Virus record (IMG/VR): IMGVR_UViG_3300028400_000003
Location: 1 to 64,000 of that record
Length of the DNA: 64,000 nucleotides
DNA from: a virus
Reading direction: 5' to 3' (one strand)
Made by a program: the position numbers and the translations under genes
The notes under the pieces: generated by a model
What the model was told of the DNA's origin: nothing
Database searches by the model: none
Seen by the model: the letters and a program-made list of their open reading frames with translations, nothing else
Shown: piece after piece, positions 9,477-29,266 of the stretch
Layout: each line of letters opens with the position of its first letter
How positions within the stretch are numbered: position 1 is the first letter of the stretch

Positions 9477-9522
9477 TTGACAAATAGCGCAACCCCCTAT
9501 ATACTAAGGACAGGAGGTAGGC
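9477..9522 (+). promoter_or_regulatory. repeated promoter+RBS cassette
   Basis: TTGACAAATAGCG...TATACTAAGGACAGGAGGTAGGC. Confidence 0.9.
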
Positions 9523-13340: not shown

Positions 13341-14630
13341 ATGGAACCGAAGGCGATCTACCTGGTAGGCGGAGCGGTGAGGGATGTACTGCTTGGTCGC
13401 CCGGTAAGCGACCTGGACCTGCTGGTAGAGGGGTTCAGTCAAGACGAGCTTAAAGCGACGCTCGGGGAGCCCAACGGCAAGAGCTTTCCCGTGTGGCGGT
13501 ACGGACCTTTTGAAGTGGCCGCCGCCAGGTTGGAAAGAAAGACCGGCGCGGGTCACAAAGGGTTCAGCGTCGAATGGGGAGAGCACGTGACCGCCAGGCA
13601 GGAGCTTGGCCGTCGCGACTTTACCGTCAACGCGCTGGCCCTGCTGATCTGGTCAGGCAACGGCGGCATGCCTAGCGTGAGAACACTAGAGGCTATCACG
13701 GCCGCCGCTATCGTTGATCTGAGCAAGCACGGCCGCAACGCCGTTGGCCTCCTGAACCCGTTTGGGGGACTCGAGGATTTGCTGGATCACAAGGTGCTCA
13801 GGGCCACGAACCGCAAGGCGTTCCGGGAAGACCCGTTACGGGTGCTGCGTCTGGCCCGCTTCGCGGCGCGGTGGCCCTGGATGAGCCTGGACGAGTGGAC
13901 GGTCGAGGCCGCCCGCAACGCGGTGCACGAGCTTAAAACCCTGCCTGCTGAGCGGGTGTGGAACGAGTGGGTTAAAGCCAGCAAGACCCGCCGCCCCGAC
14001 CGCTTCTTCCAAGTGCTTGACCAGGTGGGGGCGCTTGAGCACCTGCCAGGCTTCGCTTGGTTGAAAAGGGCTAAGCAGCTGACCCCGCCGAACCACTCGG
14101 AGAGTCTGTTTGACCACTCACTGCGTACCCTCCGGGCGGCGCGGCGGCTCGTTGGCGTGGACGTGGCCCTGCTGTCTGCGGCCCTTTGGCATGATCGGGG
14201 TAAGCTGGCGGGGTCGGTTGGGCATGACCGCCACGGGGTGGAAATGGCCCTCGAAGACCTCGACGCGCTCAAGGCTCCGCGCAACGTTCGGCGAACCGTA
14301 GCTACGTGGGTCCGTAACCATATGCGGGTTTGGGATGCCAAGCGGGCGGGCAAGTTGGTTCGGTTGGCCGCTGACCTGGATCGAGCGGGGTTTGACCCTA
14401 ACCTTGTTACGCGCATGGCGGCTGCGGATAGCCTGGGAAGCACCAAGCGTAAAAGCGACGCGCGGGCGATCTGCAAGATGCACCGCCGCCTTGCCCTGGC
14501 GTTCAAGTCGCTTAGTGCGGTGCGTGGTGACGACCCGGCCCTGGATGGAGTCAGTGGTCAGGATGTAGGGGTCAAGCTGCTAGGGCTTCGTGCTCACTGG
14601 TTGTCACGCAGAATGAGGGGAAGGCTATGA
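13341..14630 (+). CDS. cca: tRNA nucleotidyltransferase (CCA-adding, class II) with HD domain
   Basis: VGGAVRD..LG..DLDL, RRDFTVNA, EDPLRVLR, ER.W.E, H...HD.GK. Confidence 0.9.
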   Translation: MEPKAIYLVGGAVRDVLLGRPVSDLDLLVEGFSQDELKATLGEPNGKSFPVWRYGPFEVAAARLERKTGAGHKGFSVEWGEHVTARQELGRRDFTVNALALLIWSGNGGMPSVRTLEAITAAAIVDLSKHGRNAVGLLNPFGGLEDLLDHKVLRATNRKAFREDPLRVLRLARFAARWPWMSLDEWTVEAARNAVHELKTLPAERVWNEWVKASKTRRPDRFFQVLDQVGALEHLPGFAWLKRAKQLTPPNHSESLFDHSLRTLRAARRLVGVDVALLSAALWHDRGKLAGSVGHDRHGVEMALEDLDALKAPRNVRRTVATWVRNHMRVWDAKRAGKLVRLAADLDRAGFDPNLVTRMAAADSLGSTKRKSDARAICKMHRRLALAFKSLSAVRGDDPALDGVSGQDVGVKLLGLRAHWLSRRMRGRL

Positions 14631-16660: not shown

Positions 16661-16705
16661 TTGACAAATAGCGTAGTACCCTATATACTAAGAACAGGAG
16701 GTAGG
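16661..16705 (+). promoter_or_regulatory. repeated promoter+RBS cassette
   Basis: Near-identical to the 14955 copy. Confidence 0.9.
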
Positions 16706-16707
16706 AC

Positions 16708-20935: not shown

Positions 20936-22051
20936 GTGACTGATGACCAGTACCGCATTCTCGCAGCTAGGTTCCTACAGGAGGCGATGTACACCAAGAA
21001 TAAGCGGACTGGGTACCGTAGCTTCAGGGCGTGGTTAAAGAACAATGGCTATCCGGCCCCCGGTACTGATCGGGGGTTGCGCATTTTGAAGAGCTTAAAG
21101 GCTGCTCGTATTCGCACCAACACATGGGAGAGCCCCGGCCCCGATGGACCGGTACAACTGAACCAGGTACGTATTGATTGGGATAGCGTCGAGTCTGATC
21201 TACGGGCCTCGATCCTCGACTTTATACGCAGGGAGGTTGAACCGGTTAGGATTAAACCGGCAAGGCTTGGAAACAAGTTGGGCGTTCTGTCCATACCCGA
21301 TATTCACGTCGGGAAACTGGCATGGGGTGATGAGGTAGGCAGTAGCTATGATACCAAGATCGCGGTAGCCGTTTACAGGGATGCAGCTTCACACCTGATA
21401 GGCGAGTTGCGGCGCAACGATGTAGGAGAGGTGGTCTATGTCGTTGGAAACGACCTGCTACACGTAGATGGCTTTGACAATGCCACTACCGCAGGCACCC
21501 CGCAGGATACCGACACCAGGTTCCAGAAAGCTTTTTTACGGGCCAAGGACATGATCGTGGCCACGGCTTGCGCCCTAGCCGAGTTTGCTCACGTTCACCT
21601 TGTGGTTCAGCCTGGAAACCATGACCGTATTCTTTCGTGGACCCTAGGCGAGGTGCTGGCCGCCTACTTCAAGGACTCGAAGGCGGTGAAGGTTGACAAT
21701 GCACCTGCCTATCGCCGGTACGTGCAAAAGGGGCGCATCTTGTTCGGCATCACTCACGGTGACAAGGTGAAACCAACCGACCTTCCCTCGATCATGGCCA
21801 CGGAGGCCCCGGACAGCTGGGGGAGTACGGTGTACCGCGAGTGGTTTCTTGGGCACCGCCACCGCAAGCAGGAGTTTACGACGTTGAGCATAACCGAACA
21901 GGGCGGCGTTCGCATTCGCTTCCTCCCAAGCTTGGCCGGTCAGGACCGCTGGCATTTCGAGCGCGGATACTACAACGTGCGTTCGGCCGAGGCTCACGTC
22001 TACGCTCCTGAAAAGGGGCACCAGCTGATGAGCTTCTACTACCATCTTTAG
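20936..22051 (+). CDS. calcineurin-like metallophosphoesterase
   Basis: DIHVGK, GNDLLH.D, GNHD, THGD, GHRH; likely leaderless GTG 6 nt after TATCAT. Confidence 0.8.
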   Translation: MTDDQYRILAARFLQEAMYTKNKRTGYRSFRAWLKNNGYPAPGTDRGLRILKSLKAARIRTNTWESPGPDGPVQLNQVRIDWDSVESDLRASILDFIRREVEPVRIKPARLGNKLGVLSIPDIHVGKLAWGDEVGSSYDTKIAVAVYRDAASHLIGELRRNDVGEVVYVVGNDLLHVDGFDNATTAGTPQDTDTRFQKAFLRAKDMIVATACALAEFAHVHLVVQPGNHDRILSWTLGEVLAAYFKDSKAVKVDNAPAYRRYVQKGRILFGITHGDKVKPTDLPSIMATEAPDSWGSTVYREWFLGHRHRKQEFTTLSITEQGGVRIRFLPSLAGQDRWHFERGYYNVRSAEAHVYAPEKGHQLMSFYYHL

Positions 22052-22178
22052 GCGGTATTGACAAAGCTATTACCTTTGTGTCGTTTTTACTCCTACCATA
22101 AATGCGTCTGTGGCCCTATTGTTTATGTTTGTATATTGACAAATGGCGAGCGCGTTAATAGTTTGTTGATTATTGCCC

Positions 22179-22207
22179 TTGACTTATTTATGCTGGCACG
22201 CTATACT
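22179..22207 (+). promoter_or_regulatory. tmRNA promoter
   Basis: TTGACT-17-TATACT. Confidence 0.75.
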
Positions 22208-22248
22208 GCGAGTAGGCGGTGAGGTTCAAGCCCAAGCCGCCGAAAACT

Positions 22249-22567
22249 GGGGGCGAACAGGGTTCGACGGAGCAGAAGGTAGCCGTGGCGCGGGGGCGAG
22301 GTGCCGGAGGCCTCGTAAAACACCGGCAAGCTGTAACTGGCAACGACACTTTTCTCGCCGCTGCTTAGCAAAGTCTAGGCAGCCGGGTCAGCGTCAGACC
22401 TGGGAACAGAAATGACGCCCTCGTGCAAGATGCCTACCTCCAAGGGTATACCGCTACCCGCTCGCACGGGCAAAAGGCGGTGTTAGTACGGCGTGTTCAT
22501 ACCCCCAACGAGTAGCGCCACGCCTACCCTGTTTCGGACGCGGGTTCAATACCCGCCGCCTCCACCA
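22249..22567 (+). ncRNA. ssrA: tmRNA
   Basis: 5' GGGGGCGAA..GGTTCGAC; 3' T-arm GCGGGTTCAATACCCGC-CGCCTCCACCA with G3:U70; tag ORF 22339-22368 GNDTFLAAA* after TAACT. Confidence 0.93.
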
Positions 22568-22570
22568 CTC

Positions 22571-22594
22571 GGGCCGCCTTCGGGCGGCCCTTTG
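22571..22594 (+). terminator. intrinsic terminator
   Basis: GGGCCGCC-TTCG-GGCGGCCC-TTTG. Confidence 0.8.
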
Positions 22595-22607
22595 CTTGTG
22601 TCAACAC

Positions 22608-22636
22608 TTGACAAAAATAGTAGGGTCATATATAAT
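22608..22636 (+). promoter_or_regulatory. tRNA-cluster promoter
   Basis: TTGACA-17-TATAAT. Confidence 0.85.
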
Positions 22637-22684
22637 ACAGCTGGCAGCCGCAGGCGGCCGGTGGAGCTTGAAAACCTAGATCGT

Positions 22685-22760
22685 ATAGGGGTGGCGCAAT
22701 TGGTAGCGCACCGGCTTTGGGAGCCGGGGGTTGCGGGTTCAAGCCCCGCCCCCTATACCA
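22685..22760 (+). tRNA. trnP: tRNA-Pro(TGG)
   Basis: Cloverleaf, anticodon loop TTTGGGA, encoded CCA; A1:U72. Confidence 0.9.
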
Positions 22761-22763
22761 TAT

Positions 22764-22806
22764 GGGCGGCATGGATGCAAGCTGGGTTCAAGCCCCAGCC
22801 CGCCCA
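22764..22806 (+). ncRNA. tRNA minihelix-like element (acceptor-like stem + T arm only)
   Basis: GGGCGG/CCGCCC stacked on GCTGGG-TTCAAGC-CCCAGC. Confidence 0.5.
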
Positions 22807-22810
22807 AGAG

Positions 22811-22994
22811 CGCGGGAGTTGCACCATGATGCGCAGAGCAGCCGATGGAAGGTGCAACAGGTTGCCGCCGAAGGCGGGGTCGGCGGTGGAAACAATGGAG
22901 CGGGTTTGGGAAGATGCGGCCAGCTACGCTGACCAACGCATCGGCCCGAGCGTAGGGGAACCCGCAGGGGCTACGGTAGGTGGGGACCGTAGCT
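22811..22994 (+). ncRNA. structured non-coding element A (two stem/AGGYGGGG-hairpin units)
   Basis: Four stems; linkers and loops are shared with element B while the stem sequences differ. Confidence 0.65.
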
Positions 22995-23000
22995 GTTTAT

Positions 23001-23076
23001 GGGCGCGTAGCTCCAACGGGAGAGCGGCCGGTTTGCACCCGGCAGGTTGCAGGTTCAAATCCTGTCGCGTCCACCA
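23001..23076 (+). tRNA. trnA: tRNA-Ala(TGC)
   Basis: Cloverleaf, G3:U70, CCA. Confidence 0.93.
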
Positions 23077-23079
23077 TGC

Positions 23080-23169
23080 GGTGGGGTGGCGGAGCCAGGT
23101 TTAACGCACCCGGTTGCTAGCCGGGCGGTCTGAAAAGGCCCGTAGGTTCAAATCCTACTCCCACCGCCA
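23080..23169 (+). tRNA. trnS: tRNA-Ser(GCT)
   Basis: Long variable arm, G73, CCA. Confidence 0.9.
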
Positions 23170-23172
23170 GAT

Positions 23173-23250
23173 GCCAGCGTAGCCCAATCAGGCAGAGGCA
23201 CCCGGCTTAGGACCGGGGTAGTGCAGGTTCAAGTCCTGCCGCTGGCACCA
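23173..23250 (+). tRNA. trnL: tRNA-Leu(TAG), short variable loop
   Basis: Anticodon loop CTTAGGA, A73, CCA. Confidence 0.85.
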
Positions 23251-23251
23251 T

Positions 23252-23326
23252 GCCCGGTTAGCTCAACGGTAGAGCGTTCGCCTTGTAAGCGAGGGGCTGG
23301 GGGTTCAAATCCCTCACCGGGCTCCA
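23252..23326 (+). tRNA. trnT: tRNA-Thr(TGT)
   Basis: Cloverleaf, U73, CCA. Confidence 0.92.
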
Positions 23327-23329
23327 GAG

Positions 23330-23536
23330 GGGCGTCTGCACGACGCATGCGGCCTGGCGCGGGCGGGGCGGGCCGTCGCGGGAGCCTGTTCGGAGCCGGA
23401 GGGCTGCACTAGATCATGGGAACAGGCAGGCTGCACCGGAGGTGGGGCCGGTGTGGAAGCGGAGCAGACCTAGTAGGCTTCATGCCTGCGGAGCGTAGGT
23501 GGGGTCTGCACATCATGATCGGCGGGGGTCATGATG
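23330..23536 (+). ncRNA. structured non-coding element B (three units), paralog of A
   Basis: Same linker and loop order as A, with compensatory stems. Confidence 0.65.
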
Positions 23537-23542
23537 ACTCGA

Positions 23543-23618
23543 TGGCCGGTAGTTCAAATGGCAGAACAACGGACTTTGGATCCGTGGGTTGCAGGTTCGA
23601 GTCCTGCCCGGCCAGCCA
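23543..23618 (+). tRNA. trnQ: tRNA-Gln(TTG)
   Basis: U1:A72, G73, loop CTTTGGA, CCA. Confidence 0.92.
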
Positions 23619-23621
23619 GAC

Positions 23622-23708
23622 GGAGGGGTCGCCAGTAGGTGCGGCAACCGGTCTTGAAAACCGGGGCGGGTAACACCGTTGCAGGTTCGAGTCCTGTCCC
23701 CTCCGCCA
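23622..23708 (+). tRNA. trnS: tRNA-Ser(TGA)
   Basis: Long variable arm, G73, CCA. Confidence 0.9.
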
Positions 23709-23711
23709 TAT

Positions 23712-23786
23712 GGCCCTGTCGTCTAATGGACAGGACATCTGCCTACGGAGCAGAAGATCGGGGTTCGAGTCCCTGCGGGGCCGCCA
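23712..23786 (+). tRNA. trnR: tRNA-Arg(ACG)
   Basis: Loop CTACGGA, CCA. Confidence 0.9.
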
Positions 23787-23806
23787 GAAAGAAAGGGGCG
23801 ACCGGT

Positions 23807-23986
23807 GTGGAAAGACCTTATTGCCTTCTCGTTGATAACTTTGTGACCGCCTGTGGAAAGTACAGGTTTGCCATCGTTGACTTCCCCTACGTCGCAAGAA
23901 CACTCGATGAGGTCACATGCGAAGAGTGCAAACGCTCCAAGGAATACCAGAAGTTGGTAGACATGGCCCCGTCGTCTAATGGATAG
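23807..23986 (+). CDS. small Cys-containing protein between tRNAs
   Basis: GAAAGGGG RBS; TACG...VTCEEC; stop lies inside tRNA-Arg(TCT). Confidence 0.5.
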   Translation: MERPYCLLVDNFVTACGKYRFAIVDFPYVARTLDEVTCEECKRSKEYQKLVDMAPSSNG

Positions 23987-24039
23987 GGCAGCGGGCTTCT
24001 AACCCGCCTGTGCAGGTTCGAGTCCTGCCGGGGTCACCA
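23965..24039 (+). tRNA. trnR: tRNA-Arg(TCT)
   Basis: Loop CTTCTAA, CCA. Confidence 0.92.
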
Positions 24040-24051
24040 GAAGGAGGGACG

Positions 24052-24522
24052 ATGACGAGGGAGATATGCAAGGCGTGCGGTCGGGTCAGTCGCGTAGGGT
24101 TCAGCGTCCCGGATGACCTTTGGGCCGAGGTGGTGCCCGAGGTCTATCGCGATAACGTCGTGTGCCTGGCGTGCTTCACGGAATGGGCTGATGAGTCGTT
24201 GAGGCCCTGGGACGAGAAGATCGAACTTTACCCGGTTTCCTTGAAGACGCTTCTATCCTATGAACAATCTGGCATAGTGGATACCCCAGAAGTAGGGCTG
24301 CGGCGCTTGCTCGACGAACTTGTTAGTCAGGGGCGCATCCTCAAGGCCACCTTTAATAGAATGCAACAACGCTACTGGAATGTTGTCCTTGAGGTTGACG
24401 AGGAACAGTACTACAAGGCAGGCTTCCGGCTTGGCATCATTTCCGAAATAACCGAAAAGATAGACCGGCAGTATGGAATCTACACGAACATCACCATGCA
24501 TCCAAAACGGGTGGAAACATGA
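24052..24522 (+). CDS. Zn-finger hypothetical protein
   Basis: CKACG...F.VPD.LW...CLACF. Confidence 0.55.
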   Translation: MTREICKACGRVSRVGFSVPDDLWAEVVPEVYRDNVVCLACFTEWADESLRPWDEKIELYPVSLKTLLSYEQSGIVDTPEVGLRRLLDELVSQGRILKATFNRMQQRYWNVVLEVDEEQYYKAGFRLGIISEITEKIDRQYGIYTNITMHPKRVET

Positions 24523-25178
24523 AACGGGCGCTTCGTAAGCATCATAGAACTTACCATCTTCCTTGGAGCGAAGGCGCGTCACGGGACGATCTGATTGTGC
24601 CAAGCGACGATCATTTTACCGGCCTGCCAGTCGTGGTAACGGAGAAGATGGACGGCGAAAACACATCACTCTACCGCCACACCGTACACGCGAGGTCGGT
24701 AAACAGCGGCCACCATCCATCTAGGGCATGGATCAAGGGCTTCTGGGCGAAGATCGCCCATGCCATACCGGACGGCCTGATCATTCGCGGCGAAAACCTT
24801 TATGCAACGCATTCCATCTACTACGCCGATCTACCAAGCTACTTCATGGGGTTCGCCGTCGAAACCGCAGAGGGGCTTGTGTGGTCATGGAGAAGGACCG
24901 TTGAGTTGTTTGAAGCGCTTGGCATCGAGCCGGTTCCGGTGATATATGAAGGGCTATACAATCGCGACGTGATACACCGGGCGGCTATGGAATATTTCGC
25001 CAAGACTGGCGGCCTTGATCGTCATGAGGGGTACGTCGTTCGGGTGAGCGGTGGATACCTAGCCTCAAAGCATAAGACGAGGATCAATAAATGGGTTCGC
25101 AAAGACCATGTGACCACGGACGGGCATTGGATGCATGGTAAGTTAGTGGTAAATGGGTTGGCAAAGGAGAGGGGGTAG
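24519..25178 (+). CDS. RNA ligase (Rnl2-like nucleotidyltransferase domain)
   Basis: TEKMDGEN, GENLYA.HSI.Y, EGYVVR, KWVR. Confidence 0.88.
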   Translation: MKRALRKHHRTYHLPWSEGASRDDLIVPSDDHFTGLPVVVTEKMDGENTSLYRHTVHARSVNSGHHPSRAWIKGFWAKIAHAIPDGLIIRGENLYATHSIYYADLPSYFMGFAVETAEGLVWSWRRTVELFEALGIEPVPVIYEGLYNRDVIHRAAMEYFAKTGGLDRHEGYVVRVSGGYLASKHKTRINKWVRKDHVTTDGHWMHGKLVVNGLAKERG

Positions 25179-25180
25179 GA

Positions 25181-25402
25181 GTGCGGCGAAGACGTAGAGG
25201 TCTAGCGGCAAGGAAGGCCAAGCAGGTGGCCAAGACGCTTATTGGCGGCATGTTAGGTACGGCCTTCGGGGCCGTGATGCTCCCATTGGAGGCGCTTCAT
25301 CGGGCCGAAACCGGCTTGACGGATGAACCCTATCTAGTCGAGGAGGGCTTAGGCAACTTGTTTGGCGGCCTCGTGGAAACCATGTTTGACTGGGAGGAGT
25401 AG
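25181..25402 (+). CDS. hypothetical protein
   Basis: RBS, operon packing. Confidence 0.45.
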   Translation: MRRRRRGLAARKAKQVAKTLIGGMLGTAFGAVMLPLEALHRAETGLTDEPYLVEEGLGNLFGGLVETMFDWEE

Positions 25403-25411
25403 GAGGATACG

Positions 25412-25678
25412 ATGACCAAGAAGGAGATGCAGAAACGCATTAACACCCTGGAAGAAGAGGTGGCCTTTCTGCGGGAGCTAGTGCGTATGCTGACGCATGG
25501 ACAGATGCCACAAACCCCAACCTATCCCACGCCTACGCCCTGGCAGCCGCTACCCAGACGAACGAATCCGGTATGGCCGCAACTCCCGTGGGACATCTGG
25601 GTTGGCGATAATACAGGCGGTAAGCCGAAGCACTGGAGCAGTAGCGCTAGCGGGGTTGAAGTCAGCGCCTTTCACTAG
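25412..25678 (+). CDS. hypothetical protein (coiled coil + Pro-rich)
   Basis: AGGAGG RBS. Confidence 0.5.
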   Translation: MTKKEMQKRINTLEEEVAFLRELVRMLTHGQMPQTPTYPTPTPWQPLPRRTNPVWPQLPWDIWVGDNTGGKPKHWSSSASGVEVSAFH

Positions 25679-25790
25679 TAGAATGGTCTTACATCCCCCT
25701 CGACGCTGCGGCGTTGAGGTGCACCCCCGCCGAACCGTCACCGTAGGTGGCTTGCCGAAGGGCTAGGCGGGGGTTGCGTTATGATCAGGT

Positions 25791-26345
25791 ATGAAACCCT
25801 TACGCGATGGAAAGATTGTAGGCGTTGATCCAGGCACGGGTAAGGTTCACGTGGCTGTCCTGCGAGTATCGGATGGCCGGCTTTACTATGAAACCAGTGG
25901 CTCCTACGGGGTAGGCGACCTTGAACCGGTCAAGGAGCTGCTAAGCACGGCCAAGAGGTTGGTTGTAGAGAAACCCGGCGGTACCCTGTACGGAAAGGTG
26001 CGCTACGATCACCTGGTAATGATCAGCGTCAACGCAGGCCGCGTGTTCCAAATGGGCATAGACCAGGGGCTCGAGTCCCGCCTGGTAAACGCGCATGGTC
26101 CTGGAGGCTGGCGGCCCGCATTGCTTAAGAGCGGAAAGGGCTACCGTCGAAAGGGGCAAGAGGTAGCGGAGCTTGAGGCCCTGCTGCCTTACCTGATCCG
26201 TGAGCTACCGCTTCGCAATGGTAGGTTGAAGGGGGTGGTGAGTGAGCACCAGCGGGACGCCTTGGGCATAGCCGTGGCGGGCGCGTTGGGGCTTAACCCG
26301 CTACCCCGTAGAGGCAAGCAGCGCCGTGGACCCATAGCTCAATAG
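25791..26345 (+). CDS. RuvC-like Holliday junction resolvase
   Basis: IVGVDPG, VVEKP, H.RDALGIA. Confidence 0.75.
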   Translation: MKPLRDGKIVGVDPGTGKVHVAVLRVSDGRLYYETSGSYGVGDLEPVKELLSTAKRLVVEKPGGTLYGKVRYDHLVMISVNAGRVFQMGIDQGLESRLVNAHGPGGWRPALLKSGKGYRRKGQEVAELEALLPYLIRELPLRNGRLKGVVSEHQRDALGIAVAGALGLNPLPRRGKQRRGPIAQ

Positions 26346-26404
26346 GTTAGAGCACCCGGCTCATAACCGGTAGGTTGCAGGTTCAAGTCCTGCTGGGTCC
26401 ACCA
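26328..26404 (+). tRNA. tRNA-CAT, probably Ile2 (lysidine type) rather than Met
   Basis: GGACCCA acceptor, CCGG-CTCATAA-CCGG arm, not initiator-like; CCA. Confidence 0.85.
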
Positions 26405-26460
26405 TTTTACACCGGTGCCTAGTTGAAAATTTGACTAGGCACATATTTAGCCGCATGCCC

Positions 26461-26506
26461 TTGACAAGTAGTGTAATACCCTATATACTAAGGACAGGAG
26501 GTAGGC
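26461..26506 (+). promoter_or_regulatory. repeated promoter+RBS cassette
   Basis: TTGACA-17-TATACTAAGGACAGGAGGTAGGC. Confidence 0.9.
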
Positions 26507-26507
26507 A

Positions 26508-26888
26508 ATGGCGAAGATCGCACATATACTGACTGATGACCAAGAGATCAGCATCTTCACCACTGGGGGCAACGTGGACGTAAAAGGGGTTTCTTCGTTC
26601 GCGGAAGGCGTTCAGCGGTCTAAGGAGCTTGCTGAGGAGTACCGTGAAGCCGGGTATGAGGTGACCGTGTACGTCAAGTTTGACTTGGGCGAGGACGGCG
26701 CTATGTACGCTAGCAGCTTCGAGTTTGGCCCTGAAGGCGCGGAGATCGCCGGTGTCTATGAAAGCCCCGAGGGTGAAATTCCGGGCAAAATTCACGTGTA
26801 CACGGTTCACGGCGGCGATGGTCTGCGCATTCCGGCCACGGTCGAGGACCTGAACAACGACTGGAACGAATGGGGGTTTAAAGAATGA
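26508..26888 (+). CDS. acidic early protein
   Basis: D/E-rich; first gene after the cassette. Confidence 0.6.
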   Translation: MAKIAHILTDDQEISIFTTGGNVDVKGVSSFAEGVQRSKELAEEYREAGYEVTVYVKFDLGEDGAMYASSFEFGPEGAEIAGVYESPEGEIPGKIHVYTVHGGDGLRIPATVEDLNNDWNEWGFKE

Positions 26889-27817
26889 ACGCACGTGACA
26901 TTGCCCGCTACTGGAATTGGTCTTCAACGGACCCAGAGGCCCGCGCTCAGGAAGCACTCGACTACATGCGTGGTAACCTGCGGCGCTTCCTTGAGCACGT
27001 CAATAAGCTGGCGGGTATGGATGGCGTGGACCCCAGCTTTGACCCTGCCGAAGAGTACGGACGCTTCGTGGCCAAACACAAGGAGCTTCACCGCGCCTAC
27101 TGGGAGGCCATCGGCCGCACGGCCAACCCGATGATCACGGGCCGCGCTAAGTTTCCGGTCGAGCGCAACCGACGGGCCAACGAGATCGCCGTTAAACGCT
27201 TCGAGGCCATCGAGGACCACCTGGAGAAGGCGATGAAAGCCGCTGAGCGCAAGGCGTTCCCTTACGGCATGAAGGGCGACCCGGTGAAAAACGAAGACCC
27301 GGAGGCCGTTAGCAAGCTCGAAGAGAGGCTTGAGCGGCTTAAGGGGTTGCAGGCCAAGATGAAGGAGGCTAACCGGCTGTTCCGGAGTGGTGATGACCAG
27401 GCCCTTATCGAAATGGGCTTCAGCCCCGAACAGGTCGAGGAGTGGCGGACGAGCACGGATATCTTCAAGGCCGGCCCTCCCTTCAAGAGCTTCGACCTGG
27501 CCAGCGTTCGCGGCAAGATCAAGCGGGTAGAGGAGCGCCTGGTCGTGCTCAAGCGTCGGGCCGAACGCCTTGAGCGCGAGGGCGGGAACCCAACTTACGT
27601 TGTTGTGCCCGGCATGCGCATCGTTGAAAACCTGGAGCTAGATCGTCTACAGTTGTTCTTCGACGGCAAGCCCAAGGACGAGGTTCGCGCGTTGCTCAAG
27701 CGCAATGGCTTCAAGTGGGCTCCCTCGAAGGGGGCCTGGCAGCGCAAGCTCACGGACAACGCTAAACGCGCTGTGCGTTACATCGTTGACGAAATCCTCA
27801 AGGGGGGTGGGCTATGA
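26885..27817 (+). CDS. polyvalent-protein-associated (DUF3560/LPD-like) protein
   Basis: MITGRAKFP..RN, RLQLFFDGKP...R..LKRNGFKWAPS.GAWQRKLT. Confidence 0.65.
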   Translation: MNARDIARYWNWSSTDPEARAQEALDYMRGNLRRFLEHVNKLAGMDGVDPSFDPAEEYGRFVAKHKELHRAYWEAIGRTANPMITGRAKFPVERNRRANEIAVKRFEAIEDHLEKAMKAAERKAFPYGMKGDPVKNEDPEAVSKLEERLERLKGLQAKMKEANRLFRSGDDQALIEMGFSPEQVEEWRTSTDIFKAGPPFKSFDLASVRGKIKRVEERLVVLKRRAERLEREGGNPTYVVVPGMRIVENLELDRLQLFFDGKPKDEVRALLKRNGFKWAPSKGAWQRKLTDNAKRAVRYIVDEILKGGGL

Positions 27818-28260
27818 TTGCCCACCCTCCGAAGGCTTACTATGTAGGCGTTCGCCAGCCTATGCGCGATCTATTCCAGCCCGTAAAAAACGCCATGCCC
27901 TATAGCGGGCTTCCGAAAAAACCGGAGGGCGGGTTGTGGATGAGCCCGTGGTCTTCATACGCGCCTGCGTGGGTTGAGTTTCTGCTAGACAGCGGACTCA
28001 GGTTTAAGGATTGGGATCGGTTGGGCGTGTGGGAGGTTGACGTGAGCGGGCTCAAGACGGCGCGTGTGGCCCCAACCGACCCGTACCCCGACTTCGAGGA
28101 GCTGGCCCGTGAATACGACCTGTTCTTTTTAATGGCCAGGGACGTTTGCGGCTGGACCTACACCTGGGACATACCAACCTTCGTGTTGCTCAGGTGGGTT
28201 GACGGACTCGAGTTCCGCAAGATCGCGGACAGCGTGAAGCAGTTTAAGGACAGGAGGTAG
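27814..28260 (+). CDS. hypothetical protein
   Basis: KP.GGLW.SP...W..F, DFE.LA..YD, WD..T. Confidence 0.55.
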   Translation: MIAHPPKAYYVGVRQPMRDLFQPVKNAMPYSGLPKKPEGGLWMSPWSSYAPAWVEFLLDSGLRFKDWDRLGVWEVDVSGLKTARVAPTDPYPDFEELAREYDLFFLMARDVCGWTYTWDIPTFVLLRWVDGLEFRKIADSVKQFKDRR

Positions 28261-28263
28261 GCA

Positions 28264-29219: not shown

Positions 29220-29265
29220 TTGACAAGTATGGTGGCGCAATATATACTAAGGACAGGAGGTAGGC
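29220..29265 (+). promoter_or_regulatory. repeated promoter+RBS cassette
   Basis: TTGACA-17-TATACTAAGGACAGGAGGTAGGC. Confidence 0.9.
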
Positions 29266-29266
29266 G

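What the first reader, a model, noticed from the sequence alone, without database searches (positions are those of the whole stretch)
22811..23536. Two paralogous structured RNAs built of covarying units with AGGYGGGG loops, embedded in the tRNA cluster
Seen: spacers A (22811-22994) and B (23377-23536) align element by element although their stems differ. The shared order is: CGCGGGA; stem 1 (A GTTGCACC/GGTGCAAC, B GCCTGTTC/GAACAGGC); AGG; a hairpin with loop AGGYGGGG (A TTGCCGCCGA/TCGGCGGTGG, B CTGCACCGG/CCGGTGTGG); AA..GGA; stem 3 (A GCGGGTTT/GAACCCGC, B GCAGACCT/GGGTCTGC) enclosing an inner hairpin and GAGCGTAGG; A; and a hairpin with loop NGGYGGGG (A GGCTACGGT/ACCGTAGCT, B CATCATGAT/GTCATGATG). 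B has a further degenerate unit at 23330-23376, giving five units in total. Conserved loops on fully compensated stems are the signature of a selected RNA structure. Inference: RNase P and 3' processing of the flanking tRNAs would release abundant multivalent RNAs. These could sponge a host RNA-binding or defence protein, in the manner of CsrB, ToxI mimics or Racr decoys. From memory only (unverified), TGCACCGG...GGGCCGGTG resembles some Thermus CRISPR repeats. I recognise no known family.
Basis: partly seen in the sequence, partly recalled or inferred. Interest (0 to 1): 0.9.

Follow-up and report, generated by a model that had tools for sequence, protein, structure and literature searches.

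The report
New folded RNAs in phage tRNA operon
Two related, strongly folded non-coding RNAs of an undescribed family sit between the tRNA genes of a hydrothermal-vent phage and display the same purine-rich loop on several different hairpins, but what they bind is still unknown.

Summary
Spacers A (22806-23000) and B (23372-42, plus a hairpin at 23349-76) share one four-helix plan. A covariance model built only from B and its homologue in a related vent metagenome contig (L084) finds A at 52.4 bits, E=2e-12. On A, B and L084-B, all 99 cells of 33 pairs are standard pairs. 18 pairs changed on both sides, against 1-2 with slid partners. 13 cells are G.U, so the RNA is read from the + strand, like the tRNAs.

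No Rfam 15 family matches either spacer at E<=10. There is no BLAST match in phages or plasmids, no match in T4 rnaC/rnaD, no tandem repeat and no Ro60 gene.

The RNA is built of modules: GGA, a closing stem, AGG, then a hairpin with loop AGGYGGGG. Terminal hairpins end 4-6 nt before a tRNA or tRNA-like minihelix. That fits excision by RNase P.

I found the family only in this vent-phage clade: the window, L084 and contigs of other vent runs.

Function is inferred, not shown. Most likely these are excised stable RNAs that offer several copies of one loop to a partner. No expression data exist. The scan has noted other, unrelated RNAs in phage tRNA clusters on other DNA.

The parts
22608..22636 (+). 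Promoter of the tRNA/ncRNA operon (TTGACA, 17 nt, TATAAT)
   Evidence: 12 of 12 consensus matches. No terminator-like site follows within the cluster.
22685..22760 (+). tRNA-Pro(TGG), first gene of the operon
   Evidence: ARAGORN; Rfam tRNA 68.4 bits.
22764..22805 (+). tRNA-like minihelix (acceptor stem plus T arm, no encoded CCA) just before RNA A
   Evidence: Folds as a 12-bp stacked helix. The same element is kept in L084 at 9969-9928 (-) and lies on the relatives' contigs that cover 22762-22992.
22806..23000 (+). RNA A (core 22811-22994): 5' CGCGGGA; P1 22818-25/22851-58; AGG; P2 22862-71/22880-89 with loop AGGCGGGG; P3 22900-07/22958-65 holding GAGCGTAGG at 22948-56; AGG; P4 22969-77/22986-94 with loop AGGTGGGG
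   Evidence: R1 match 52.4 bits, E=2e-12; R2 match 124.5 bits; pair counts.
23001..23326 (+). tRNA-Ala, Ser(GCT), Leu and Thr between A and B. tRNA-Ala starts 6 nt after P4 of A.
23349..23376 (+). Hairpin H0 (8 bp; 12-nt loop GCGCGGGCGGGG) that precedes B
   Evidence: Predicted in the MFE fold and listed. L084 has a hairpin with loop AGGTGGGG and a different stem at the same relative place (10460-10435, -).
23372..23542 (+). RNA B (core 23377-23536): CGCGGGA; P1 23384-91/23420-27; AGG; P2 23431-39/23448-56 with loop AGGTGGGG; P3 23464-71/23502-09 holding GAGCGTAGG at 23491-99; A; P4 23511-19/23528-36 with loop CGGCGGGG
   Evidence: R1 match 202 bits. The stretch 23327-23542 folds with z -3.70. 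Homologue L084 10434-10265 (-) scores 199.5 bits.
23543..23786 (+). tRNA-Gln, Ser(TGA) and Arg(ACG). tRNA-Gln starts 6 nt after P4 of B.

Best explanation
A and B are two paralogous genes of an undescribed family of structured non-coding RNA, about 170-195 nt long. They are read from the + strand as part of the phage's tRNA operon.

Each RNA is a tandem of two diverged modules. A module is GGA, an 8-bp closing stem with a variable inside, AGG, then a 9-10-bp hairpin with the 8-nt loop AGGYGGGG.

I infer three further steps.
1. The RNAs are cut out of the precursor by the enzymes that mature the flanking tRNAs. RNase P, cutting at the 5' end of the next tRNA or minihelix, would leave a terminal hairpin with a 4-6-nt tail.
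2. This end would make them accumulate as stable RNAs.
3. They act in trans by offering several copies of the same purine-rich loop on different stems to one partner. The partner could be a protein or a pyrimidine-rich RNA. The design resembles multi-hairpin sponge or scaffold RNAs.

Shown: the structure, the strand, the paralogy, the modular build, conservation in a related phage, and the position relative to tRNA ends. Inferred: excision, stability, action in trans and the kind of partner.
For: Structure and homology:
- R1 was built without A and finds A at E=2e-12.
- 99 of 99 pair cells are standard pairs, and 18 of 33 pairs changed on both sides, against 1-2 when slid.
- 13 G.U cells fix the strand.

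Conservation:
- L084 carries a B homologue at 199.5 bits, with 3 compensated pairs against B.
- L084 also carries an A-like copy at 22 bits, E=6.7e-4.
- Contigs of other vent runs cover A and B with 6-11 differences. The listed ones keep pairing (C>T opposite G) or keep the loop Y (C>T at 22875, T>C at 23443).

Modules: D6 shows 71% ungapped identity between module II of A and module I of B.

Selection on loop rather than stem: 10 hairpins (5 in the window, 5 in L084) have 10 different stems. 7 of them carry AGGYGGGG exactly, and the other three carry CGGCGGGG, CAGGAGGGG and a 12-nt loop holding GGGCGGGG.

Excision:
- One consensus promoter and no internal terminator.
- All 5 terminal hairpins end 4-6 nt before a tRNA or minihelix 5' end. 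The downstream tRNA differs each time: Ala, Gln, Asn, Phe, or a minihelix.
- In L084 a minihelix separates the two modules, so each module has its own tRNA-like handle.

Precedent: T4 rnaC and rnaD are annotated small stable RNAs directly beside tRNA-Arg. Two papers say their roles are unknown (passages of PMC3014915 and PMC9697503).
Against: - There are no expression or end-mapping data. No listed run is RNA.
- Only three full-length sequences exist, and two of them are about 90% alike. The covariation therefore rests mainly on the A-versus-B comparison, on an alignment fitted to the model.
- No conserved neighbouring gene suggests a protein partner. Within 14.5 kb of L084 only the esterase and one small ORF are shared.
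- The constant 4-6-nt distance to the RNase P site would equally fit a role in cis.
- In one relative's contig A is followed by 85 other letters before tRNA-Gln (table 5), so adjacency to a tRNA may not be universal.
- The genome's + strand is G-rich throughout (skew about +0.1). That explains part of the purine bias of unpaired parts, though not the identical loops.
Confidence: 0.45

Rival explanations
1. The elements act in cis on the tRNA operon and are not RNAs with a life of their own. The hairpins just upstream of tRNA 5' ends would set the order or rate of RNase P cleavage, protect the precursor from nucleases, or keep RNA polymerase resistant to termination. The last idea is modelled on rRNA-operon and phage nut/put elements, which I recall rather than tested.
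For: - The spacing from terminal hairpin to the next tRNA or minihelix is a constant 4-6 nt in 5 of 5 cases.
- A passage of PMC11143913 says the RNase P protein contacts leader positions -8 to -3, which is where these hairpins begin.
- There are two copies in one operon that runs on into protein genes without a terminator.
Against: - Most tRNAs of the same operon follow one another after 1-5 nt, and one after 178 nt that hold a small ORF, with no such element. It is therefore not needed for processing.
- 5 of the 10 loop hairpins are internal and far from any tRNA end.
- The conserved loops and junction sequences (GAGCGTAGG, GGA...AGG) and the 170-nt four-helix build exceed what a leader hairpin needs.
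- In L084 the modules are individually bracketed by tRNA-like handles.
Confidence: 0.2
2. The loops pair with a pyrimidine-rich RNA rather than a protein. The partner would be the 3' end of 16S rRNA (the loops acting as detuned Shine-Dalgarno mimics) or a C-rich host regulatory RNA. The RNAs would then be RNA sponges or ribosome-binding stabilisers.
For: - The loop AGGYGGGG equals the full Shine-Dalgarno octamer AGGAGGUG except at positions 4 and 7.
- One L084 loop is AGGAGGGG.
- The phage's own genes use AGGAGGT-type ribosome sites. That pick of start sites was biased towards G-rich upstream sequence.
- All conserved unpaired segments are purine-rich and have no pyrimidine-rich partner inside the RNA.
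Against: - The two conserved departures from the Shine-Dalgarno sequence are mismatches to the anti-SD, and the Y at position 4 is kept as a mismatch in 9 of 10 loops.
- An 8-nt hairpin loop can offer only a few bases for pairing.
- The phage needs the same ribosomes.
- No candidate C-rich host RNA is known, because the host is unknown.
Confidence: 0.12
3. A and B are catalytic or ligand-sensing RNAs: a new self-cleaving ribozyme that helps release the tRNAs, or an aptamer.
For: - Variable stems join conserved unpaired nucleotides in junctions and loops, which is the usual signature of ribozymes and aptamers.
- HDV-like theta ribozymes next to phage tRNAs are known. I saw only the title and abstract start of PMC10879173.
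Against: - No hit to any ribozyme or riboswitch family of Rfam 15 at E<=10.
- The conserved parts are the same short motif repeated in hairpin loops, not one asymmetric core.
- There is no downstream expression platform.
- RNase P sites already lie 4-6 nt away.
Confidence: 0.06
4. The RNAs assemble with themselves. G-tracts of several loops form G-quartets, or the loops mediate RNA-only multimers, as seen for larger phage-associated RNAs near tRNAs.
For: - Each RNA has about four GGGG tracts.
- One canonical quadruplex motif lies at 23361-82, and one with longer linkers lies in L084.
- GOLLD and ROOL often lie near tRNAs and in prophages (passage of PMC5737381).
- RNA-only multimers are reported for them and for RNAs under 200 nt (abstracts of 10.1101/2024.12.08.627333 and 10.64898/2026.07.01.735769).
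Against: - The quadruplex motif at 23361-82 is not kept at the same place in L084.
- Folding with quadruplex energies left B unchanged and gave A only a two-layer quartet.
- The tracts in the loops are too far apart for the programs' models, so this is untested rather than contradicted.
Confidence: 0.07
5. The hairpins mimic CRISPR repeats of the host (an RNA anti-CRISPR), as the first reader half-remembered.
Against: - Ten hairpins have ten different stems, whereas a repeat mimic must keep the repeat's stem and flanks.
- BLAST of B against plasmids gave 11 records, each with one place, at E>=0.5.
- BLAST against phages gave nothing.
Confidence: 0.03

Closest known systems
Phage T4 RNAC and RNAD (rnaC, species 1, 139 nt; rnaD, species 2, 119 nt)
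   Same: They are small stable RNAs encoded inside a phage tRNA gene cluster, directly abutting a tRNA. They are made from the tRNA region, and two papers say their function is unknown (passages of PMC3014915 and PMC9697503).
   Different: There is no sequence or structure match: the best R1 hit in the T4 tRNA region is 3.3 bits, E=1.4, and BLAST to phages gives none. T4's RNAs lie at the end of the cluster. The RNAs here lie between tRNAs and are built of repeated modules with one conserved loop.
CsrB/RsmZ-type sponge RNAs (recalled, not tested against their Rfam models individually)
   Same: The design is the same: many hairpins with different stems, each showing the same short purine-rich loop motif, in one RNA.
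   Different: The defining GGA loop motif is absent. Only 1 of 10 loops holds GGA. No Rfam hit at E<=10. No CsrA partner is known here. These RNAs are phage-encoded and bracketed by tRNAs rather than ended by a terminator.
GOLLD and ROOL RNAs
   Same: They are ornate structured RNAs often found near tRNAs and in prophages, with unknown function (passage of PMC5737381).
   Different: ROOL averages 581 nt (passage of PMC5737381), and GOLLD is, as I recall, longer still, against 170-195 nt here. Neither Rfam model matches. Their architecture has multistem junctions and pseudoknots, not repeated modules.
Phage operator and antitermination hairpins (lambda boxB/nut, HK022 put; recalled)
   Same: Hairpins whose loop is the recognised feature, present in two copies per genome within early transcripts.
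   Different: Those elements have one or two hairpins close to a promoter and keep nearly the same stem. Here there are four to five hairpins per operon with unrelated stems, embedded in a larger four-helix fold. No such family was hit in Rfam.

Membership tests
Any family of Rfam release 15 | Covariance-model match at or near the gathering score | tested here: not met
   cmscan of 21500-27000 at E<=10 gave 25 matches, none within 22806-23000 or 23344-23542. L084's copies also gave none at E<=1.
CsrB/RsmZ-type CsrA sponges | GGA motif in most hairpin loops | tested here: not met
   GGA lies inside 1 of 10 loops, the L084 loop CAGGAGGGG. The others are AGGYGGGG, CGGCGGGG and GCGCGGGCGGGG.
CsrB/RsmZ-type CsrA sponges | Several hairpins with unrelated stems and one shared loop motif | tested here: met
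   5 hairpins in the window and 5 in L084, all with different stems.
ToxI-type antitoxin RNA (type III toxin-antitoxin) | Tandem, nearly identical direct repeats of about 36 nt | tested here: not met
   Tandem Repeats Finder found 0 arrays in 22600-23800 at score >=30. The modules are only about 70% alike at best.
RNA anti-CRISPR (repeat mimic) | Hairpin stem and flanks copy a host CRISPR repeat | not testable with these tools
   The host and its repeats are unknown. Indirectly against: all stems differ, and no multi-place BLAST hit in plasmids.
Phage tRNA-cluster stable RNAs (T4 RNAC/RNAD kind) | Gene lies within a phage tRNA cluster and abuts tRNA genes | tested here: met
   A lies between the minihelix and tRNA-Ala, and B between tRNA-Thr and tRNA-Gln. 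T4 rnaC and rnaD lie beside tRNA-Arg.
Phage tRNA-cluster stable RNAs (T4 RNAC/RNAD kind) | Homology to rnaC or rnaD | tested here: not met
   R1 with filters off on T4 68000-76000: best hit 3.3 bits, E=1.4.
Phage tRNA-cluster stable RNAs (T4 RNAC/RNAD kind) | Accumulates as a discrete stable RNA during infection | not testable with these tools
   No RNA run is listed among 9 runs of 4 studies.
Bacterial Y RNA (YrlA) with Ro60/Rsr | YrlA model match and a TROVE-domain gene in the genome | tested here: not met
   YrlA hits fall on tRNAs only (26.2 bits against a gathering score of 69). PF05731 gave 0 matches in the 84-kb record, while the control genomes responded. The record is estimated 82% complete.
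Small self-cleaving ribozymes (hammerhead, twister, pistol, hatchet, HDV-like) | Match to the family model | tested here: not met
   None at E<=10 in either spacer. Self-cleavage itself was not testable.
tRNA / tmRNA | Cloverleaf or tRNA-like domain detected | tested here: not met
   ARAGORN tRNAs and 1 tmRNA, none inside A or B.

The most novel reading that the evidence does not exclude
A and B found a new class of phage counter-measure RNA. They would be cut out of the tRNA operon in large amounts and act as a multivalent decoy. Their AGGYGGGG loops would be detuned ribosome-binding-site look-alikes. The loops would soak up a host factor that recognises purine-rich loops or their pyrimidine-rich partners, such as a defence nuclease aimed at the translation apparatus or a C-rich regulatory RNA. 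This would fit the phage's neighbouring kit of tRNAs, tmRNA, CCA-adding enzyme and RNA ligase.
Probability: 0.15. Interest if true: 0.8.

Novelty: new variant of a known kind. Interest (0 to 1): 0.58.

Why it matters
Phage tRNA clusters have been known since T4 to hide small stable RNAs whose roles are still unknown. This pair is a clean new example. It has a four-helix fold with full compensation, a modular build, and a single loop motif kept on ten unrelated stems, which points to one specific partner. The anatomy gives a directly testable design: loop mutants against stem swaps. It also suggests that tRNA-like minihelices serve as processing handles for non-tRNA RNAs. If the partner is a host defence or translation factor, this would add an RNA-based layer to the tRNA, tmRNA and RNA-repair kits of phages from hot vents.

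Tried and rejected
Searches for more members
- Pattern scans of IMG/VR gave 0 hits or only chance hits. Searches gave 0. One search gave L083, a G-rich spacer with no tRNA. One search gave L132 and L133, which have no model match at the site and no tRNA.
- Pattern and protein scans of the species genomes gave 0.
- R1 found nothing in 83 viral loci. 82 of them were fetched through the esterase and the RNA ligase, and the other is the chance pattern hit L083. 9 of the 83 hold 3 or more tRNAs. R2 also found nothing there.
- R2's weak hits in L101 and L108 (E 0.24 and 0.82) carry many mismatched pairs, so I treat them as chance.

Expression
- No RNA holder is listed among 9 runs of 4 studies, so nothing can be said about expression.

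Replication-origin idea
- Cumulative GC skew rises steadily through the cluster with no turn. I dropped the idea.

DUF3800-IX link
- Its GGCGGGGG is the 3' strand of that motif's own closing helix and is unrelated to the loops.

Protein partner by synteny
- Only the esterase and one small ORF are shared with L084, so there is no lead.

Other ideas considered from the sequence and not pursued
- Likeness of the loop to the RfaH ops element, to a conserved 16S rRNA stretch, and to T-box codon and UGGN elements. Each fits only some of the hairpins, and each rests on my recall.

Literature
- Five text searches turned up no description of this RNA. None could search by sequence motif, so prior description cannot be excluded.
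- Supplementary files were not consulted. The Weinberg 2017 supplements list 224 motifs that I could check only through Rfam.

Limits
The 50-60% identical esterase homologues on long contigs and the Logan contigs of runs X2, X3 and X8 could therefore not be fetched.

Full report
**Setting**

The window is the first 64 kb of an 84,085-bp phage record. The record is classed as linear and about 82% complete. Its DNA is held by hydrothermal-vent metagenome runs.

A tmRNA gene (22249-22567) has its own promoter and terminator. A perfect sigma-70-type promoter at 22608-36 (12 of 12) then opens an operon with no terminator-like site inside it. The order is:
- tRNA-Pro
- a tRNA-like minihelix (22764-22805)
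- spacer A
- tRNA-Ala, Ser, Leu and Thr
- spacer B
- tRNA-Gln, Ser and Arg
- small ORFs, one more tRNA, and an RNA ligase gene.

**The observation**

A plain MAFFT alignment of A and B fails in the 3' half, so I tested the likeness differently.

A related phage contig from a vent metagenome, L084, was found through the esterase gene upstream of the cluster (60% identity). It carries a close homologue of B on the strand of its own tRNA cluster. I built covariance model R1 from B and this homologue only, with the four helices given as structure.
- R1 finds A over its full length at 52.4 bits, E=2e-12 in 115,821 bases.
- On the resulting three-row alignment, all 99 cells of the 33 pairs are standard pairs.
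- 18 pairs changed on both sides. The shuffled mean is 6.3, and 0 of 500 shuffles reach 18. Partners slid by 1-3 columns give 1-2.
- 13 cells are G.U. These would be A.C on the other strand, so the RNA is read in the direction of the tRNAs.
- B and its L084 homologue alone already differ by three compensated pairs.
- The whole genome has only these two copies.

Caveats: there are only three sequences, two of them close, and the alignment was fitted to the model. The fold of 22761-23000 (A with the minihelix before it) is not exceptional on its own (z -1.49). The stretch holding B gives z -3.70.

**Anatomy**

Each RNA is a tandem of two diverged modules. A module is GGA, an 8-bp closing stem around a variable inside, AGG (or A), then a 9-10-bp hairpin with the loop AGGYGGGG. 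Module II of A aligns without gaps to module I of B at 71% identity (family D6).

A fifth hairpin (23349-76), with GGGCGGGG in a larger loop, precedes B. L084 has a hairpin with loop AGGTGGGG and an unrelated stem at the same place.

Together the window and L084 show ten loop hairpins with ten different stems. GAGCGTAGG inside P3 is kept in A, B and L084-B. It can pair with different upstream partners in A (CTACGCT, giving the pseudoknot noted by another reader) and in B. I therefore read it as conserved for its own sake.

All conserved unpaired segments are purine-rich. None has a pyrimidine-rich partner inside the RNA.

**Processing**

The last hairpin of each RNA or module ends 4-6 nt before the 5' end of a tRNA or of the minihelix, in 5 of 5 cases. 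The tRNA differs each time: Ala, Gln, Asn and Phe.

Model R2, built from A, B and L084-B, shows that L084's second spacer is an A-like copy (22 bits, E=6.7e-4). Its two modules are separated by the same minihelix that precedes A in the window. Every module is therefore bracketed by tRNA-type handles.

RNase P cutting at the downstream handle would leave a GC-rich terminal hairpin with a very short tail. From what I recall of bacterial 3' exonucleases, such an end resists them. This is inference. No RNA run was available.

**Distribution**

- R1 and R2 find nothing in 83 viral loci, 9 of which hold tRNA clusters.
- Among 48 metagenome loci only L084 matches.
- Contigs of three other vent runs cover A (6 and 10 differences) and B (10-11 differences) in rearranged tRNA orders.
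- The listed differences keep pairing or keep the loop's Y.
- Pattern scans of IMG/VR and of one genome per prokaryote species gave only chance hits.

As far as these tools reach, the family is confined to one clade of vent phages.

**Comparison with what is known**

- No Rfam 15 family matches either spacer at E<=10.
- Phage and plasmid BLAST finds nothing.
- There are no tandem repeats, so this is not ToxI-like.
- No TROVE/Ro60 gene is present, so it is not the Y-RNA arrangement that the scan saw in other phages.
- The closest known kind is T4's rnaC and rnaD. They are small stable RNAs beside tRNA-Arg with unknown roles (passages in PMC3014915 and PMC9697503). R1 does not match them.
- In design the RNAs resemble CsrB-type sponges, with one loop motif on many stems, but they lack the GGA motif.
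- GOLLD and ROOL share the tRNA and prophage neighbourhood (PMC5737381 passage), but not size or fold.

**Mechanism**

I commit to excised, stable, trans-acting RNAs that present several copies of one purine loop to a single partner (confidence 0.45).

The partner is unknown. The loop differs from the full Shine-Dalgarno octamer at two positions, and the phage's genes use AGGAGGT-type sites (a biased pick of starts). A pyrimidine-rich RNA partner is therefore a real alternative to a protein.

The rivals are a role in cis in tRNA processing or read-through, a ribozyme or aptamer, self-assembly through G-tracts (one search was inconclusive), and a CRISPR-repeat mimic (weak).

**Verdict**

This is a real and well-supported new structured-RNA family in a phage tRNA operon. 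Its functional idea remains open, and its CRISPR-repeat recollection is not supported.

Noticed in passing
window 25721-25781 (+): A DUF3800-IX RNA (Rfam RF02968) matches at 48.9 bits, above the gathering score of 36.8. It lies just upstream of ORF 25791-26345, which has no Pfam hit at E<=0.01.
   Followed up: partly
window 22764-22805; L084 9969-9928 (-): A tRNA-like minihelix (acceptor stem plus T arm, no D or anticodon arm, no encoded CCA) is conserved between the window and L084 but sits at a different place relative to the RNA modules. The phage also encodes a CCA-adding enzyme with an HD domain at 13341-14630.
   Followed up: partly
L084 about 10185-10066 (-) and 9519-9414 (-): Two further tRNA-like elements lie in L084's cluster. 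Each has an acceptor-like stem and a T arm around a long insert. ARAGORN does not call them, and one gives a weak tmRNA hit (13.2 bits).
   Followed up: no
window 9506-9522, 16691-16707, 26491-26507, 28247-28263, 29250-29266: Nearly identical ribosome-site words ((C/T)TAAG(G/A)ACAGGAGGTAG, then ATG) precede at least five genes, three of them letter for letter.
   Followed up: no
window 25412-25678; L084 9325-9239 (-): A small ORF of the window is 79% identical over 29 residues to an ORF that lies inside L084's tRNA cluster. Besides the esterase, it is the only protein shared within L084's 14.5 kb.
   Followed up: no
window 22249-22567: The phage tmRNA (108.8 bits) carries the tag GNDTFLAAA and has its own promoter (22179-22207) and terminator (22571-22590).
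   Followed up: no
window 22600-23800 against runs X2, X3, X4 and X8: Relatives in other vent metagenomes carry the same tRNAs and RNAs in a different order. For example tRNA-Gln is joined to tRNA-Pro, and A is followed by 85 other letters before tRNA-Gln (tables 5 and 8).
   Followed up: partly
window 23361-23382: The only canonical G-quadruplex motif of the cluster (four G3 tracts, linkers 1, 1 and 7 nt) spans the loop of hairpin H0 and the 5' CGCGGG of B. It is not kept at that place in L084.
   Followed up: partly
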